Of a DNA stretch of 38,469 nt, positions 6,939 to 14,604 are shown piece by piece (position 1 is the stretch's first letter; each line of letters starts with the position of its first letter). Made by a program: the position numbers and the translations under genes. This stretch comes from Anaerolineae bacterium (lineage in GTDB: Bacteria; Chloroflexota; Anaerolineae; Aggregatilineales; J027). The notes under the pieces were generated by a model. The model searched no databases. It saw only the letters and a list, made by a program, of their open reading frames with translations, and was not told the origin of the DNA. The stretch is taken from positions 1-38,469 of the forward strand of contig JBNLCD010000003.1 of the NCBI GenBank assembly GCA_050303635.1. Reading direction: 5' to 3'.

Positions 6939-7012
6939 CGTGCCCGGAGGGACTCGAACCCCCGACCTATTGTTCCGTAGACAATCGCTCTAATCCACTG
7001 AGCTACGGGCAC
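6939..7012 (-). tRNA. tRNA-Arg(ACG)
   Basis: Minus strand GTGCCCGTAGCTCAGTGGATTAGAGCG-ATTGT-CT ACG GA-ACAAT-AGGTCGGGGGTTCGAGTCCCTCCGGGCACG; no encoded CCA. Confidence 0.96.
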
Positions 7013-7104: not shown

Positions 7105-7644
7105 CTAGCGGCTCTTAAATTCTATGAATTTCTTCCAAGAAGCCGGTCCAGTCCCAACTTCGAGAACTAAATAGTTTGTTCTCGGTCTTCTGGGTTCCCA
7201 AAGGAGTTTCATACCTGCTTCACCTGGTAGACGACTGCCCTTCTTGCGATTACAAACATAGCAAGCACAAGCGGTATTTGTCCAAACATCTTTGCCGCCA
7301 CGTGAACGAGGCAAAATGTGGTCAATCGTCATATCGCTTTTGTTGAGTGGCTTGCCTTGAACCATGTCGCCCGGCTTACGTGAGCAATAAATACACACAT
7401 AATTGTCGCGGGTTAAAACAGCCCGCCGACTCCATGTTGCTTGGCGACGTGGCACGTTAATAAAAGTTTTCAGGGCAATAACGGACGGAATAGGAAAAAT
7501 TTCGTGCACACTACGTAAAACCTGCCCCGTTTGCTCAACAATGATTGCTTTGTTGGCTAGAAGCAGGTTGATGGCTCGTGGAATACTAATAATGTCTAGC
7601 GGTTCCCAAGTACTACCATTTAGGAGGAGAACTCTCCCGTGCAA
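7105..7644 (-). CDS. HNH endonuclease (McrA-like, zinc-binding)
   Basis: VLLLNGSTWEPL N-terminus; RDNYVCIYC; TIDHILPRSRGG..WTNTACACYVCNRKKG. Confidence 0.92.
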   Translation of the reverse strand: MHGRVLLLNGSTWEPLDIISIPRAINLLLANKAIIVEQTGQVLRSVHEIFPIPSVIALKTFINVPRRQATWSRRAVLTRDNYVCIYCSRKPGDMVQGKPLNKSDMTIDHILPRSRGGKDVWTNTACACYVCNRKKGSRLPGEAGMKLLWEPRRPRTNYLVLEVGTGPASWKKFIEFKSR

Positions 7645-7682
7645 GGTGGTTTATCCTTAATCTATTTGACCACTTACTTCAT

Positions 7683-7722
7683 ATTATACGGTATAGTGCT
7701 TGTTTGTACAAAATTGTACAAA
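7683..7722 (-). promoter_or_regulatory. Putative HNH promoter with an overlapping palindromic operator
   Basis: Minus strand TTGTAC (7711-7706), 17 bp, TATAAT (7688-7683); TTTGTACA-AAAT-TGTACAAA palindrome at 7703-7722 covers the -35. Confidence 0.5.
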
Positions 7723-7760
7723 TTAAATTATGGTTAAATATTTGAATCCTGTTAACCTAC

Positions 7761-7789
7761 TTGACTGACCTGTATTGAACCCTTATACT
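7761..7789 (+). promoter_or_regulatory. Sigma70-type promoter P1 of the HTH gene
   Basis: TTGACT, 17 bp, TATACT. Confidence 0.6.
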
Positions 7790-7832
7790 ATCAAAAAACA
7801 TCTACACCTAAATTACTATAAAATATTTGTTG

Positions 7833-7861
7833 TTGACAAGGGTTATAACATTTTGTATAGT
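7833..7861 (+). promoter_or_regulatory. Sigma70-type promoter P2 of the HTH gene
   Basis: TTGACA, 17 bp, TATAGT. Confidence 0.7.
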
Positions 7862-7887
7862 TTAGAATGGATTGGAGGATTACTCCG

Positions 7888-8121
7888 ATGAGTGCAACTG
7901 TAAAAGCTAGGCAGTCAGCAGAAGGGAAACCTGGTATTCAACCAAACGCTGTTTATTCCCGCAAGGAAGCGGCGCACGCTCTAGGTGTGAGTTTGAGTAC
8001 TTTGAAGAAACTTATAGACAATGGTTTTCTACAAGTTTCGCAACCTCCCGGTATGCGCCGTGTGTTCATCAAAGGTAGTAGCATCTTAAGTATGCTCGAC
8101 CAAACCATGTTGGACACGTAG
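7888..8121 (+). CDS. Small helix-turn-helix DNA-binding protein (HTH_17 / excisionase-like fold)
   Basis: YSRKEAAHALGVSLSTLKKLIDNGFL...RRVFI; GGAGG RBS at 7874-7878 favours ATG 7888 over 7867. Confidence 0.85.
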   Translation: MSATVKARQSAEGKPGIQPNAVYSRKEAAHALGVSLSTLKKLIDNGFLQVSQPPGMRRVFIKGSSILSMLDQTMLDT

Positions 8122-8160
8122 TTCGTTTTAGTCATTTTATTCGTTTGATCTAATGTAGAA

Positions 8161-8637
8161 AGTGGGGTCTGATGTCCCAATTTTATTCGATAGCCGAGGT
8201 AAATAAACTCCTCCCCAATGGTGCAGTATTGCCCATCCCAGGGATGAATCCGTTTACCGTAACTGGCCTAAGCGTGCTGAATAGCCACCCCGAAGCGGGG
8301 CTTAGCTATCCATTGCCCGCACCTGAGGGTGTAGCACGCAGTGACTCTGGCAACATGCTAGTAGTCAACCCAGATTGGCTTATCGAACGGGATGCCGCCG
8401 GATTTAACATTAACACCGGAGCAGGCCACGATAGAAACGTGGACATCAAGATTAGCAGTTTAACAAATGACTTTCGCCAAGATTTATCGCGACCCTACGC
8501 TGGCGTACCAGGGTGCAGGAGGATGCACGAGCGGCATAAAAACCGCCACTAACGCACACTGGTAATCGGTGAAGCCCAATATTCGGGGCGTAGGGTCTAA
8601 GTCATAGCGACAAAATCCTACGCCCCGATTTTTATTT
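8161..8637 (+). ncRNA. Putative large structured RNA / regulatory leader of unknown class
   Basis: Many nested long-range helices, one crossing helix pair (pseudoknot), G-U pairs mostly favouring the + strand, ending in a strong terminator; see findings. Confidence 0.65.
8583..8637 (+). terminator. Intrinsic terminator / attenuator
   Basis: TCGGGGCGTAGGG (8583-8595) / TCCTACGCCCCGA (8616-8628) followed by TTTTTATTT. Confidence 0.85.
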
Positions 8638-8674
8638 GGGTGTGGGTAACTTGAAAATTTAAGGTGTGACAACC

Positions 8675-8956
8675 ATGACCCACTTACAGAACATAACTAA
8701 GGAAAGACGACAAATCACCGATTTGCACTTAGAAACCCTGCTGGAAACATTGGATCGTATCCATAGTGCCGCTTCAAACGGTACCCTAGCAGATGAAACG
8801 ACTATCGACGAACATGAATTAAAAGGTTGGCTGGAAGACATCATTTATACAGCACAAGAAACTATAAATGAGTTGGCGGCCAACGCCGAAGACACACAGC
8901 AAACCGCTTTGAATATCGCGAACCTGTCTGTCATCCGCTTATACAGTCGTAGTTAA
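8675..8956 (+). CDS. Hypothetical acidic helical protein (93 aa)
   Basis: Protein-like composition (LETLLETLDRIHSAAS...WLEDIIYTAQETINEL); AAGGTG RBS at 8661-8666 before ATG 8675. Confidence 0.75.
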   Translation: MTHLQNITKERRQITDLHLETLLETLDRIHSAASNGTLADETTIDEHELKGWLEDIIYTAQETINELAANAEDTQQTALNIANLSVIRLYSRS

Positions 8957-8989
8957 TCAATAGAAACATCCTAATTCAAAGGAGGCAAC

Positions 8990-9211
8990 ATGTTTAAACG
9001 ACATATCTGACATCCACCAATTAAATTTGGTAAGAAGCTGAGTGATACTGCTCAGGCAAAATTAAGTCGTGATCTTATTTTTAAGTTGTTGGGGAAAAAT
9101 AGCCCCGTAGGAGAGATGACACAATGCATCTTCAACATGTGCGACATCATTATCAGCCAAAATTCGGTAAATATTGCGCGATGCAAACACAAAAACAAAG
9201 CGCCGCCCTAG
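8990..9211 (+). pseudogene. Small ORF interrupted by TGA at codon 7 (or a 6-aa peptide MFKRHI)
   Basis: Strong AAAGGAGG RBS at 8978-8985; MFKRHI*HPPIKFGKKLSD... stays open to TAG at 9209-9211. Confidence 0.35.
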
Positions 9212-9267
9212 TGATGTTTAATGCGGCAGAAAAGGAATTACTCAATGTCACGTTGTTACTCGATTAG
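9124..9267 (+). CDS. Putative 47-aa peptide
   Basis: AGGAGAG RBS at 9109-9115; MHLQHVRHHYQPKFGKYCAMQTQKQSAALVMFNAAEKELLNVTLLLD*; below the ORF-track length cut-off. Confidence 0.35.
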   Translation: MHLQHVRHHYQPKFGKYCAMQTQKQSAALVMFNAAEKELLNVTLLLD

Positions 9268-9500
9268 CAAACAACACAGACCAAGTTATCGCTCAAACCA
9301 TAAGCGCACCAGTCGACGGCAAATTGCTGGTCGTAAATCCAATATTACGGGTGGTGGGATAAATAGTGACCAACATCCGGACGGTGGAGGCGAGTGGTAT
9401 GGAGATTTCCGTTTAGCGCTTGTTACGTCTAGGAAATGTAGCAAGGAGCATTCAAACTTAGATTATCCTACTGAATTTTGCGACATTTTATTGGCTATTT

Positions 9501-9566
9501 AACCCCGATGTTGTGTCCTCTAGCTTAATAGAGGCAAATGCACATAACATCGGGTTCGTTTTTTTT
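9501..9566 (+). terminator. Intrinsic terminator with an internal hairpin
   Basis: AACCCCGATGTTGTGT (9501-9516) / ACATAACATCGGGTT (9542-9556), inner CCTCTA/TAGAGG, then T8. Confidence 0.8.
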
Positions 9567-9696
9567 ATTTGAGATTACACCTCTGTTTTTTCTAAAATTG
9601 ATACCTCTAAATAATTCATAGCTTTGCTAGGCAATCCCCATTAAAAACGCTACAATGAACTCTCAATATTGTTATAAATCATGAAGGAAATAATCC

Positions 9697-10335
9697 GTGC
9701 AGGAACTTGATAAAACGATTGATGAAATTAGTGATGAATTTGAAGGTTTAAATACCGCCCGTGAAGCAACCTTAGCCCGTACCCGGAAGTTAATTAGATT
9801 ATGCGCCAATACCATTCGGGCGATTCATCGTCGGGAATGGGAGAATGCCCAAGAGGGTTTGGCTAAAGCTAAAGAAGTTGCCGAGAATCTGGCGGCTGAA
9901 ATCGTCGAGTACCCTGAATTATATAATAGTGGCTATACCCAAGATTCATTACGTGAATATGCTGAGGCTAATCTTACGTATGTTCTAGTCCGTGGTGAAT
10001 CTCTGCCTAGCCACACCGATCTCAATATTCCCCCCGCAACCTATCTAAATGGTTTGGCTGAAGCGGCGACTGAATTGCGTCGCCATATTTTGGATATTAT
10101 TCGTCACCAGCATGATGCTGAAGCCGAACGCATGTTAGAAGCGATGGATGCGATTTATAGCCATTTGATCACGGTTGATTATACCGATGCGATCACCCAC
10201 GGTTTGCGGCGTCGCACCGATGTTTTGCGCAATGTTCTTGAGCGCACACGCGGTGATTTGACAACTAGTTTACGCCAACAACAACTTCAAGATGCGTTGC
10301 AAGCCTTGGAGAAAAAGGTAGGAATTGAAGAATGA
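9697..10335 (+). CDS. Translin/TRAX-family protein (C3PO-like RNase)
   Basis: All-helical 212 aa; ARE...TRKLIRLCANTIRAIHR, QDSLREYAEA, YLNGLAEAATELRR, LRRRTD match translin-family motifs. Confidence 0.85.
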   Translation: MQELDKTIDEISDEFEGLNTAREATLARTRKLIRLCANTIRAIHRREWENAQEGLAKAKEVAENLAAEIVEYPELYNSGYTQDSLREYAEANLTYVLVRGESLPSHTDLNIPPATYLNGLAEAATELRRHILDIIRHQHDAEAERMLEAMDAIYSHLITVDYTDAITHGLRRRTDVLRNVLERTRGDLTTSLRQQQLQDALQALEKKVGIEE

Positions 10336-10520: not shown

Positions 10521-11015
10521 ATGAGCTTGGTTTTAGTTATTCTGGGATTATTGATTGGGAGTGTGTTGCTTTGGGTCGGTGGACGGTGGCTTCGTCAACG
10601 ACTTAGTGGTAATCCTTTTCCTAATCTACAAGGACAACTGGTCTCATCTAAATATGGTGTCACGGGTAAACCGGATTTAATCCTTGAACAGGGTGGCTAT
10701 CCTATTCCCGTGATTACCAAACGGGGTAAAGCGCCCAAATCACCCCACGATAGTCACGTGGCACAAATTCTGGTCCATTGCTTGCTGATCGAGGATATAA
10801 CGCAAATTACCCCACCTTATGGCGTGATTCGCTACGACAATCGTACATTTGAAGTTGATTATGACAACGAAATGTATGAGATGTTGGTTGACCTACTAGA
10901 TGAAATGCACCACGAGCGCGAGCAAGAGCTAACCCTTCTGCCACGTTCCCACCGTAAAAAACACCATTGTGCGGGTTGTCGTCATCGTAAGAAATGTGAC
11001 GAGTCCCTAATCTAA
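10521..11015 (+). CDS. Membrane-anchored Cas4-like PD-(D/E)xK-fold protein, not CRISPR-linked
   Basis: N-terminal TM; YGVTGKPDLI, PIPVITK, HVAQILVHCLLIE, PYGVIRY, C-terminal CAGC-x5-C. Confidence 0.82.
   Translation: MSLVLVILGLLIGSVLLWVGGRWLRQRLSGNPFPNLQGQLVSSKYGVTGKPDLILEQGGYPIPVITKRGKAPKSPHDSHVAQILVHCLLIEDITQITPPYGVIRYDNRTFEVDYDNEMYEMLVDLLDEMHHEREQELTLLPRSHRKKHHCAGCRHRKKCDESLI

Positions 11016-14532: not shown

Positions 14533-14604
<72 letters not shown>

What the first reader, a model, noticed from the sequence alone, without database searches (positions are those of the whole stretch)
8161..8451. Large ornate RNA domain with a pseudoknot downstream of an HTH gene
Seen directly: long-range helices TGATGTCC (8170-8177)/GGACATCA (8441-8448) and TTCGATAGCC (8186-8195)/GGC(T)TATCGAA (8377-8387). 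Two further helices cross each other, CAATGG (8216-8221)/CCATTG (8310-8315) and GCGTGCT (8272-8278)/AGCACGC (8333-8339), which defines a pseudoknot. Local hairpins: ATAGC..CCCCG-AAG-CGGGG..GCTAT (8281-8309), GCACC-TGAG-GGTGT (8319-8332), TGACT-CTGGCA..TGCTAG-AGTCA (8342-8367) and CCGG/CCGG (8398-8419). AGTGG (8161-8165) can also pair with CCACT (8546-8550). G-U pairs mostly favour the + strand. I could not find hallmark sequences of tmRNA, RNase P, SRP, group I/II introns, T-box or common riboswitches. Inference: an undescribed large ncRNA or ligand/protein-sensing leader.
Basis: partly seen in the sequence, partly recalled or inferred. Interest (0 to 1): 0.88.

Follow-up and report, generated by a model that had tools for sequence, protein, structure and literature searches.

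The report
Structured RNA overlapping a frame-kept ORF
The flagged stretch is not a free-standing RNA gene but most of a small open reading frame, kept open in related Anaerolineae, that evolves like a folded RNA rather than a protein and probably acts as a translated regulatory RNA.

Summary
On this one sequence they are only mildly unusual: fold z -2.9 on + and -3.3 on -, and perfect helices at chance frequency. No Rfam family matches here or in 15 syntenic loci.

The region is the first 280 nt of a 126-codon ORF (8172-8552). It lies between a conserved HTH_17 gene and a conserved intrinsic terminator (8583-8637), upstream of a conserved 93-aa gene. An ORF in this position, usually with a purine-rich Shine-Dalgarno-like run before it, is present in 18 of 18 assessable genomes of the family, and nearly all indels keep the frame.

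The ORF does not evolve like a protein:
- no third-position excess
- dN/dS about 1
- random-like amino-acid replacements
- no family and no predicted fold

Its synonymous sites are 2-4 times less diverged than in the flanking genes, and substitutions preserve the predicted fold. The sister species shares the nested long-range stalk, which includes the start codon. The proposed pseudoknot is unsupported.

Best reading (0.45): a translated, structure-constrained regulatory RNA in the HTH_17-ORF96 operon. Rivals are an ordinary orphan gene (0.3) and an untranslated ncRNA (0.15).

The parts
7888..8121 (+). HTH_17 (excisionase-type) small DNA-binding protein gene, first gene of the unit. The start is ATG 7888 behind GGAGG, or ATG 7867.
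   Evidence: Pfam HTH_17 E 2.1e-6 and 28.3 bits against a cut-off of 27. NCBIfam 'excise' domain at 24.1 bits, below its cut-off of 28.8. An ortholog is present in 19 of 19 family genomes. It evolves as a normal gene: variable columns by codon position 5/3/34 in the sister genus.
8162..8204 (+). 5' strands of the nested long-range stalk: P0 8162-8169, P1 8170-8177 (contains the ATG at 8172), P1b 8181-8186, P2 8187-8192, P2b 8193-8197, P3 8198-8204.
   Evidence: MFE helices. The same nested order appears in an independent fold of L003.
8172..8552 (+). ORF126 (called 'ORFX' here): a frame-conserved ORF whose amino-acid sequence is not under visible selection.
   Evidence: Searches show the ORF and its conservation. 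Searches show the lack of protein-like evolution.
8216..8315 (+). Judged to be chance.
8252..8258 (+). 3' strand of P3.
   Evidence: L003 has a helix of different sequence at the matching place (CAGCAGA/UCUGCUG against GGUAAAU/GUUUACC).
8272..8367 (+). Inner branch: helix 8272-8279/8332-8339 enclosing hairpin 8281-8309, followed by hairpin 8342-8367.
   Evidence: MFE. In 8342-8367 the three listed natural variants fall in the loop (8354) or keep the pair (8358 C>T, 8359 T>C). In the 8288-8300 hairpin one variant keeps a pair (8296 C>T) and one breaks a pair (8300 G>T).
8375..8448 (+). 3' strands of P2b (8375-8379), P2 (8381-8386), P1b (8431-8436) and P1 (8441-8448), with hairpin 8393-8423 between them.
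8454..8471 (+). Motif GCAnnnTT(A/G)ACAAnnGA, the only internal sequence shared by the long-form loci compared.
   Evidence: Present in 10 of 10 long-form loci examined. The Leu codon is TTA in 9 of 10 and the Thr codon is ACA in 10 of 10. Tail alignment.
8491..8500 (+). 3' strand of P0 (8491-8498). The 10-mer 8491-8500 is also perfectly complementary to the 5' half of the terminator stem (8588-8597), so it is a candidate antiterminator strand.
   Evidence: duplex -22.1 kcal/mol, p 0.037 against shuffles. The in-silico switch test did not respond to blocking the start region.
8583..8637 (+). Intrinsic terminator: stem 8583-8597 with 8615-8628, then a U-run. Its stem sequence is conserved across the family, with compensatory changes.
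   Evidence: Alignment-fold z -4 to -7 in the sister genus. Predicted stem probability 0.94-1.00 in 12 of 12 loci.
8675..8956 (+). ORF96, a conserved small helical protein of no known family and the gene downstream of the terminator. The start is ATG 8675 or GTG 8666.
   Evidence: It evolves as a normal gene: variable columns by codon position 11/5/38 and dN/dS 0.03-0.18.

Best explanation
Positions 8161-8451 are the 5' three quarters of a roughly 480-nt RNA segment (about 8150-8637) in the operon HTH_17 gene - ORFX - terminator - ORF96 of an Anaerolineae (Chloroflexota) genome.

The segment carries a real open reading frame (ORF126/ORFX, 8172-8552). Its openness is under selection, so it is probably translated. 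Its amino-acid sequence is essentially unconstrained. What is constrained is the nucleotide sequence, and specifically RNA folding.

A nested long-range stalk (P0-P3) closes a multi-branched domain. The stalk contains the G-rich run before the start codon and the AUG itself. The most conserved part is the ORF's 3' end through a strong, family-conserved intrinsic terminator.

My inferred mechanism is a cis-regulatory, translated leader-type RNA. The stalk limits ribosome access to ORFX. Translation through the ORF, together with alternative pairing of 8491-8500 (with 8162-8169 or with the terminator's 5' half), modulates termination before ORF96 and/or the fate of the HTH_17-ORFX transcript.

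Shown: conservation of the ORF, lack of protein-like evolution, RNA-level constraint, and the conserved terminator. Inferred: that it is translated, that it regulates anything, and the direction of any switch.
For: ORF kept open:
- A + strand ORF of 50-160 codons starts within about 100 nt of the HTH stop in 18 of 18 assessable family loci. The 19th, L006, ends 99 nt after the HTH gene.
- The ORF is longer than in dinucleotide shuffles at p<=0.05 in 9 of 13 loci tested. The - strand reaches that level in 0 of 13.
- A purine-rich run (GGAG, AGGAG, AAGGAG or GAAAGG) lies 3-17 nt before the ATG in 9 of those 13 loci. The window has only AAAGTGGGG and L003 AAGGAAG.
- In the sister genus g5, 5 of 6 indels inside the ORF are multiples of 3 (6, 3, 12, 6 and 9 nt). 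The sixth is 1 nt, in L012, and only moves the stop up two codons. One-nt indels occur just outside the ORF.
- Five database proteins at 59-91% identity cover 100% of ORF126.
- Two DNA run assemblies found by k-mers carry a 6-nt deletion at 8404. One also carries a 1-nt deletion at 8296, yet a contig of the same length yields the intact protein P0002.

Not protein-like:
- In g5, variable columns by codon position are HTH 5/3/34, ORFX 29/23/27 and ORF96 11/5/38.
- dN/dS for ORFX is 0.57-1.45, against 0-0.18 for the flanking genes.
- In the window's own lineage the listed differences fall 5/5/3 by codon position in ORF126 and 3/2/16 in the flanks (Fisher p 0.004).
- The mean BLOSUM62 score of replacements is -0.18 to -0.82. 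Random single-base changes give -0.55.
- There is no Pfam or NCBIfam family.
- A profile search of 1.84 billion representatives finds only the ORF's own cluster plus 3 weak repeat-protein hits.
- AlphaFold2 gives mean pLDDT 35.9.
- The codon-usage score of 0.049 is below all 63 same-size chunks of the training genes.

RNA-level constraint:
- Four-fold degenerate sites differ at 2/71, 2/68 and 13/59 in ORFX, against 10/92, 12/88 and 34/80 in the flanks (p 0.069, 0.024, 0.018).
- Real substitutions keep the reference fold better than position-shuffled ones in 4 of 5 comparisons with L015 (z -2.8 to -3.3, 0 of 300 shuffles). The 14 control comparisons in HTH and ORF96 give z -0.33 to +1.85.
- Substitutions inferred from P0001-P0005 spare the window's MFE fold (z -1.8, -3.2, -2.8, -2.1, -1.3).
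- The window and L003 share the nested stalk.
- The g5 consensus fold also pairs the AGGAG run and the AUG with partners 175-230 nt downstream, and the + strand fold contains many G-U pairs.

Other:
- The terminator is conserved, with compensatory changes.
- Contigs of two RNA-library runs lie over 7931-9200, including one across the terminator.
Against: - On the single sequence the fold signal is modest, and the individual helices are at chance frequency.
- Covariation is thin. In g5, 5 of 211 predicted pairs show a change on both sides, against 1.7 in shuffles. The structure was derived from that same 6-sequence alignment.
- The threading comparisons all share L015, so they are not independent. 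One of the five (L010 to L015) gave z -0.16 and L010 to L028 gave +0.13.
- The four-fold-site deficit is only p 0.02-0.07 per pair.
- In two other genera the 5' or central part of ORFX is not constrained at all. L009 against L014 differs at 23/72 sites there, against 22/219 in HTH. L013 against L031 is barely alignable there.
- The window-to-L003 helix matches at P2b and P3 need a 1-3 nt register shift relative to the MAFFT alignment, so they are not strict column-wise compensatory changes.
- The start region of ORFX is only somewhat less accessible than that of ORF96 (mean about 0.33 against 0.49).
- The proposed switch failed its in-silico test. The terminator forms with probability 0.94-1.00 whether or not the start region is blocked, in 12 of 12 loci. 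In the window, blocking did not change pairing of the terminator's 5' half with 8491-8500 (0.35 in both cases).
- An upstream complement of the terminator's 5' half is clear only in the window and in 5 of 5 short-form loci. It is absent in genera g3 and g5.
- Contigs of RNA libraries cannot show ends, strand or level, and may contain DNA.
Confidence: 0.45

Rival explanations
1. ORF126 is an ordinary lineage-specific, fast-evolving, probably disordered small protein gene with its own terminator. The RNA helices are incidental and there is no RNA-level function.
For: - An ATG, a long ORF on the + strand only, in-frame indels and a terminator about 30 nt after the stop are what a normal gene has, and most loci also show a Shine-Dalgarno-like run.
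- In short-form genera the ORF starts 2-4 nt after the HTH stop or overlaps it, as in coupled operon genes.
- A short peptide motif, (S/N)LTx(E/D), recurs in the long forms. The short forms have an L-(L/M)-T counterpart with other Leu and Thr codons.
- Perfect helices are at chance frequency.
- The 5' or central part evolves at or above the neutral rate in two genera.
- Orphan genes often show dN/dS near 1 and no predicted fold (general knowledge).
Against: - Synonymous four-fold sites are 2-4 times less diverged than in both neighbours.
- Substitutions preserve the fold in ORFX but not in the neighbours.
- Even in the conserved 3' part, the two changes listed there (8512 and 8536) are at second codon positions.
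- Leu and Thr in the motif use the same codons in 9 of 10 and 10 of 10 long-form loci.
- The sister species shares the stalk.
Confidence: 0.3
2. A large structured non-coding RNA that is never translated. The ATG and the purine run are merely parts of the stalk.
For: - Substitutions show no codon periodicity, dN/dS is about 1, there is no fold or family, and codon usage is atypical.
- Substitutions preserve the fold.
- The purine run and the AUG lie inside long-range helices in genera g1 and g5.
Against: - The open frame is kept, on the + strand only, in 18 of 18 assessable loci that have otherwise diverged beyond alignment.
- In g5, 5 of 6 indels are multiples of 3, while 1-nt indels occur just outside the ORF.
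- The short forms sit in translational-coupling position.
- No Rfam family matches.
Confidence: 0.15
3. The functional unit is only the conserved 3' part (about 8440-8637). This would be a 3'-end-derived small RNA, or a protein-binding hairpin, made from the HTH_17-ORFX transcript. The reader's region would be a neutral translated spacer.
For: - In every genus compared, the stretch from about 40 nt before the TTAACAA motif to the terminator is the best conserved. L013 against L031. L009 against L014: 8/78 and 4/65 sites differ, against 23/72 upstream. g5: 10 of 150 columns variable.
- In the window lineage, contigs over 8412-8587 and 8558-8757 carry 4 and 2 differences. The contig over 7931-8338 carries 16 and the one over 8728-9200 carries 49.
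- The terminator stem sequence is conserved family-wide.
Against: - No internal promoter is visible. No -10-like hexamer lies 16-19 nt after TTAACA in the three loci inspected by eye (window, L003, L004; sequences).
- There is only one copy in the genome.
- This reading does not explain the fold-preserving substitutions and low four-fold divergence over the whole ORF in g5, or the shared stalk in g1.
Confidence: 0.1

Closest known systems
Ribosome-mediated transcription attenuators with leader ORFs (trp, pyrBI, tna operons; recalled, not from a call)
   Same: A translated ORF of no protein function lies directly upstream of an intrinsic terminator that precedes the regulated gene. One strand (8491-8500) can pair either upstream or with the terminator's 5' half.
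   Different: This ORF is 50-160 codons rather than 14-30. No run of regulatory codons was identified. The alternative pairing is absent in two genera, and the in-silico switch did not respond. The element lies between two genes of an operon rather than at its 5' end.
Long regulatory ORFs that act through the ribosome on downstream RNA structure (SecM-secA, MifM-yidC2, VemP; recalled)
   Same: A long ORF with a poorly conserved body and a better conserved C-terminal part, upstream of the regulated gene, with RNA secondary structure in between.
   Different: No arrest motif was tested or recognised. The C-terminal conservation here looks nucleotide-level: the two changes listed there are at second codon positions. 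ORFX has no signal or membrane segment that I could see, and ORF96 has no known function.
hok/sok-type mRNAs with long-range pairing that locks the start region (recalled)
   Same: A structured mRNA of about 400-500 nt in which distant segments pair and enclose the ribosome-binding site of a small ORF.
   Different: ORFX is not a short hydrophobic toxin. The locus is single-copy and is a core gene set of the family. No antisense RNA is evident.
Dual-function RNAs (SgrS/SgrT, RNAIII/hld, SR1/SR1P; recalled)
   Same: One transcript carries both a translated ORF and RNA-level constraint.
   Different: In those RNAs the ORF is a small part of the transcript and its peptide is functional. Here the ORF fills the transcript and the peptide looks unconstrained. 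No base-pairing targets are known.
Large ornate bacterial ncRNAs (OLE, GOLLD, ROOL, raiA, HEARO; Rfam 15)
   Same: The size class (300-500 nt), a multi-branched fold closed by a long-range stem, and an unknown function.
   Different: None of them matches. Those RNAs have strongly conserved sequence cores across genera and no conserved ORF. This element has neither property.

Membership tests
Any Rfam 15 family | Covariance-model score at or above the family's gathering threshold | tested here: not met
   Whole window: only 2 tRNAs. At E<=10 over 7600-9100 there were 8 weak hits. The best was RT-8, on the terminator, at 22 bits against a threshold of 87. In 15 syntenic loci only 8 tRNAs were found.
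tmRNA / RNase P RNA / 6S RNA | This locus being the genome's copy | tested here: not met
   All three are found elsewhere in the same assembly, above their cut-offs: contig C170, C75, and C120 plus C317.
Ordinary protein-coding gene | Open frame and start signals conserved in orthologous positions | tested here: met
   18 of 18 assessable loci have the ORF. It is significant at p<=0.05 in 9 of 13 tested, on the + strand only.
Ordinary protein-coding gene | Excess of third-position and synonymous change (dN/dS well below 1) | tested here: not met
   Variable columns by codon position are 29/23/27, against 5/3/34 and 11/5/38 in the neighbours. dN/dS is 0.57-1.45. In the window lineage the split is 5/5/3 against 3/2/16.
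Ordinary protein-coding gene | A detectable protein family or a confident predicted fold | tested here: not met
   Pfam and NCBIfam give nothing. The profile search of 1.84 billion representatives finds only the ORF's own cluster. pLDDT is 35.9, though from a shallow 6-sequence alignment.
Conserved structured RNA | Base pairs maintained by compensatory change in homologues | tested here: inconclusive
   In g5, 5 of 211 pairs show double changes, against 1.7 in shuffles, with the structure derived from the same alignment. Substitutions preserve the fold in 4 of 5 comparisons. The window and L003 share the stalk, with a register shift. There are too few sequences for an R-scape-type test.
H-type pseudoknot | Both crossing helices supported | tested here: not met
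   The 8216-8221/8310-8315 helix is absent from the MFE, is of chance size, is broken by 8220 G>A, and is absent in L003.
Intrinsic (Rho-independent) terminator | A GC-rich hairpin followed by a U-run, with the structure conserved | tested here: met
   Located at 8583-8637. Compensatory changes occur across genera. Stem probability is 0.94-1.00 in 12 of 12 loci.
Ribosome-mediated attenuator | Mutually exclusive antiterminator pairing that responds to ribosome position | tested here: inconclusive
   A complementary strand is present in the window (p 0.037) and in 5 of 5 short-form loci (p 0.000-0.173, three of them above 0.05), but not in g3 or g5. Blocking the start region changed nothing in silico.
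Riboswitch | An aptamer core conserved in sequence across distant hosts | tested here: not met
   Outside the genus there is no DNA-level match to 8161-8560 in the 61 genomes searched. nhmmer aligns only L003 across the region. The gap length varies from 310 to 731 nt.
MITE or other repeat | Multiple copies in the genome | tested here: not met
   There is one copy of 8130-8660 in the 6.0-Mb assembly, which is 86% complete in 959 contigs.

The most novel reading that the evidence does not exclude
A previously undescribed class of long, translated, highly structured leader RNA in Anaerolineae. Only the openness of a 50-160-codon frame and the RNA fold are selected. Ribosome transit through the fold would set termination at a family-conserved hairpin, and so control the downstream ORF96 (and possibly the HTH_17 regulator's own message). 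That would be a riboregulator read by the ribosome rather than by a ligand.
Probability: 0.3. Interest if true: 0.75.

Novelty: new variant of a known kind. Interest (0 to 1): 0.5.

Why it matters
If the reading holds, this is a core, single-copy locus of an uncultivated Chloroflexota family in which selection keeps a reading frame open without caring what it encodes, and conserves the RNA fold around it. That would be a clean natural example of translation used as a regulatory act on a large structured RNA.

It would also be a warning for annotation. The ORF would be filed as a 'hypothetical protein' and the RNA would be missed. Parts of the locus turn up in assemblies of RNA libraries from several studies (only two of those RNA runs were laid), so expression data to test the idea probably already exist.

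If the ordinary-gene rival is right, the finding is a routine orphan gene.

Tried and rejected
Known RNA families. Rfam was negative at gathering and at permissive thresholds. tmRNA, RNase P and 6S lie elsewhere in the genome.

Repeat or MITE. There is a single copy in the genome.

Close DNA relatives.
- The only metagenome scan returned L041, a false positive. It is a high-GC gene that shares one short peptide, as its alignment shows.
- The window lineage therefore rests on the partial difference list (40 of 169 shown) and on substitutions inferred from proteins.

Internal promoter at TTAACA. By eye I found no -10-like hexamer at 16-19 nt in the three loci inspected (window, L003, L004), using the sequences printed. 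Rejected.

Overlapping gene ending at the +1-frame stop inside TT(A/G)ACA. Only 15-57 open codons lie upstream, with no shared peptide. Rejected.

Frameshift slippery site at TTTAACA. The bases before the motif vary between genera. Rejected by eye.

Column-wise covariation between the window and L003. MAFFT misaligned the 3' half, so I compared independent folds instead.

Ribosome-responsive switch. It showed no effect in silico.

My first antiterminator scan picked the wrong stem in several loci and was redone.

Start-region accessibility differed only weakly.

The paralogous HTH_17 locus on contig C166 does not have this arrangement.

ORF96 gave no informative look-alike in the protein atlas (best score 0.79) and no NCBIfam or Pfam family.

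Habitat. The run labels were not examined further, and I make no habitat claim.

Literature. Two searches listed nothing on such an element in Chloroflexota. I saw only the listings and the starts of abstracts, read no paper and opened no supplement. The comparisons with the trp, pyrBI and tna attenuators, SecM/MifM/VemP, hok/sok, SgrS, RNAIII, SR1, OLE, GOLLD, ROOL and raiA are recalled knowledge.

Full report
WHAT IS AT THE COORDINATES

The minimum-free-energy fold of 8150-8460 uses both long-range helices, the 8272/8333 helix and the hairpins at 8281-8309 and 8342-8367.

The + strand folds at z -2.92 and the - strand at z -3.32 relative to dinucleotide shuffles. In a scan of 27 windows, 8161-8450 scored -2.77. 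Only the tRNA window (-5.5) and the terminator window (-3.12) scored lower, and ordinary coding windows ranged from -2.1 to +1.2.

Taken singly, the perfect helices are no more frequent than in shuffles. For 8-mers 1 was observed against 0.64 expected, for 7-mers 4 against 2.55, and for 6-mers 15 against 10.

The 6-bp helix that makes the pseudoknot is unsupported. It is not in the MFE, it is of chance size, a natural variant (8220 G>A) breaks it, and the same-genus relative has no counterpart.

CONTEXT

No Rfam family matches the region at any threshold, and none matches in 15 syntenic loci. tmRNA, RNase P RNA and 6S RNA lie elsewhere in the assembly. The sequence is single-copy.

By the titles of related records, the genome is an Anaerolineae/Chloroflexota MAG. 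The order of features in the window is:
- a tRNA on the - strand (6939-7012)
- an HNH endonuclease gene on the - strand (7105-7644)
- an HTH_17 gene (7888-8121)
- ORF126 (8172-8552)
- a strong terminator hairpin (8583-8637)
- ORF96 (8675-8956)

The HTH_17 gene has an ortholog in 19 of 19 genomes of the family. Wherever the contig reaches far enough, ORF96 follows it after a gap of 310-731 nt. This is a core chromosomal locus, not a mobile element.

THE ORF IS KEPT

tblastn and DNA searches find nothing like ORF126 outside its own genus. Even so, each of the 18 assessable family loci has a + strand ORF of 50-160 codons in the gap.

- The ORF is longer than in shuffles (p<=0.05) in 9 of 13 loci tested. 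No - strand ORF reaches that level.
- A purine-rich Shine-Dalgarno-like run precedes the ATG in most loci. The window itself has only AAAGTGGGG there.
- In three genera with short forms, the ORF starts 2-4 nt after the HTH stop or overlaps it.
- In the sister genus g5 (six sequences), 5 of 6 indels inside the ORF are multiples of three. The sixth only trims two codons. One-base indels appear just outside the ORF.
- For the window's own lineage, five database proteins (59-91% identity) cover the whole ORF.
- Two DNA assemblies found by k-mers carry a 6-nt deletion, and one of them also a 1-nt deletion, while the frame stays intact.

IT DOES NOT EVOLVE AS A PROTEIN

In g5, variable columns by codon position are 29/23/27 for ORFX, against 5/3/34 for HTH_17 and 11/5/38 for ORF96. 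dN/dS is 0.57-1.45 for ORFX and 0-0.18 for the neighbours.

In the window's lineage, the differences listed by read laying fall 5/5/3 in ORF126 and 3/2/16 in the flanks (Fisher p 0.004). Only 40 of 169 differences were listed.

- Amino-acid replacements in P0001-P0005 score -0.18 to -0.82 on BLOSUM62. Random single-base changes give -0.55.
- There is no Pfam or NCBIfam family.
- A profile search of 1.84 billion representatives finds only the ORF's own cluster.
- AlphaFold2 gives pLDDT 35.9.
- Codon usage is atypical.

THERE IS NUCLEOTIDE-LEVEL, FOLD-RELATED CONSTRAINT

Four-fold degenerate sites of ORFX are 2-4 times less diverged than those of the neighbours: 2/71 against 10/92, 2/68 against 12/88, and 13/59 against 34/80 (p 0.069, 0.024, 0.018).

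When the real substitutions between g5 sequences are threaded onto the reference fold, they preserve it far better than the same substitutions placed at random. This holds in 4 of 5 comparisons with L015 (z -2.8 to -3.3). One comparison gave -0.16, and the two close-pair comparisons gave -1.86 and +0.13. The 14 control comparisons in HTH_17 and ORF96 gave -0.33 to +1.85. These comparisons share sequences and are not independent.

Substitutions inferred from P0001-P0005 also spare the window's fold (z -1.3 to -3.2).

Independent folds of the window and of L003 (same genus, about 55-60% identical here by my reading of the alignment) give the same nested series of long-range helices, P0, P1, P2, P2b and P3. 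P2b and P3 have different sequences at matching places. The match needs a 1-3 nt register shift relative to the sequence alignment.

The stalk includes the G-rich run before the start and the AUG itself. The g5 consensus fold does the same with its AGGAG run and AUG.

Direct covariation is thin: 5 of 211 pairs, from a structure derived on the same alignment.

LIMITS ON GENERALITY

In two other genera the 5' or central part of the ORF is as diverged as neutral sites, or more. In every genus the best conserved stretch is the ORF's 3' end through the terminator.

The terminator stem keeps a recognisable sequence across the whole family, with compensatory changes. The only internal motif shared by the long-form loci compared is GCAnnnTT(A/G)ACAAnnGA (8454-8471), conserved down to the codons used.

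MECHANISM

Strand 8491-8500 is the 3' strand of P0, where it pairs with 8162-8169. It is also a perfect 10-nt complement of the terminator's 5' half (8588-8597). A similar upstream complement exists in 5 of 5 short-form loci at 38-51 nt, but not in g3 or g5.

This suggests a 1:2 / 2:3 / 3:4 attenuator read by the ribosome. The in-silico test did not support a simple version of that idea. The terminator wins at equilibrium in 12 of 12 loci, and blocking the start region changed nothing in the window.

I therefore commit only to a translated, structure-constrained cis-regulatory RNA of the HTH_17-ORF96 operon (confidence 0.45). The attenuator is its most likely form. The rivals are an ordinary orphan gene (0.3), an untranslated ncRNA (0.15), and a functional unit limited to the 3' part (0.1).

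EXPRESSION

Parts of the 7860-8960 query occur in assemblies of 8 RNA-library runs from 5 studies. In the two I laid, contigs lie over 7931-9200, and one spans the terminator. Contigs show presence only.

VERDICT

It is nevertheless a conserved ORF, the pseudoknot is not supported, and the evidence for a conserved fold is suggestive rather than decisive. Interest is 0.5. I class it as a new variant of a known kind (leader-ORF or dual-function RNA).

Noticed in passing
window 7105-7644 (-): A 179-aa HNH endonuclease gene lies divergently next to the HTH_17 gene. It is 72-84% identical in every long-form locus (genera g1, g3, g5). No hit was found within the roughly 1.5 kb held upstream in the short-form loci. 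In a Caldilineales MAG (L036) a 41%-identical copy lies downstream instead.
   Followed up: partly
window 8583-8628 and all family loci: The terminator stem keeps a recognisable sequence (GGGGCGU(A/G)G and variants) across six genera. That is unusual for a plain terminator and suggests it is also bound by something.
   Followed up: partly
window 6939-7012 (-) and 14533-14604 (+): Two tRNA genes. A tRNA also lies near the HTH_17 gene in several relatives (L003, L014, L036, L038, L058, L059).
   Followed up: no
G000 contig C166, locus L072 1590-1850: A paralogue of the HTH_17 protein (about 57% identical) exists in every family genome. Here it is followed by unrelated ORFs, one with a heme-binding-like CxxCH motif, and not by an ORFX-terminator-ORF96 unit.
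   Followed up: partly
window 9697-10335 and 10521-11015 (+): A protein that hits Pfam Translin weakly and NCBIfam PRK14562 'haloacid dehalogenase superfamily protein' strongly (264 bits, below the cut-off of 291). Downstream, after a short ORF, comes a Cas4-like nuclease-domain protein, with no CRISPR array seen nearby.
   Followed up: no
window 8556-8636 (+): A weak Rfam hit to RT-8, a reverse-transcriptase-associated motif, at 22 bits against a threshold of 87. It rests on the hairpin-plus-U-run shape only. No reverse transcriptase gene is nearby.
   Followed up: partly
loci L010, L011, L012, L015 (igr coordinates 169-351): In genus g5 a second, Cys-rich ORF of 42-59 codons overlaps ORFX in another frame and is conserved, presumably because the DNA itself is conserved.
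   Followed up: no
window 8960-9700: The roughly 740 nt between ORF96 and the next confident gene hold only short, weakly coding ORFs (for example 9221-9502, codon score -0.105). Part of it is conserved in L003.
   Followed up: no
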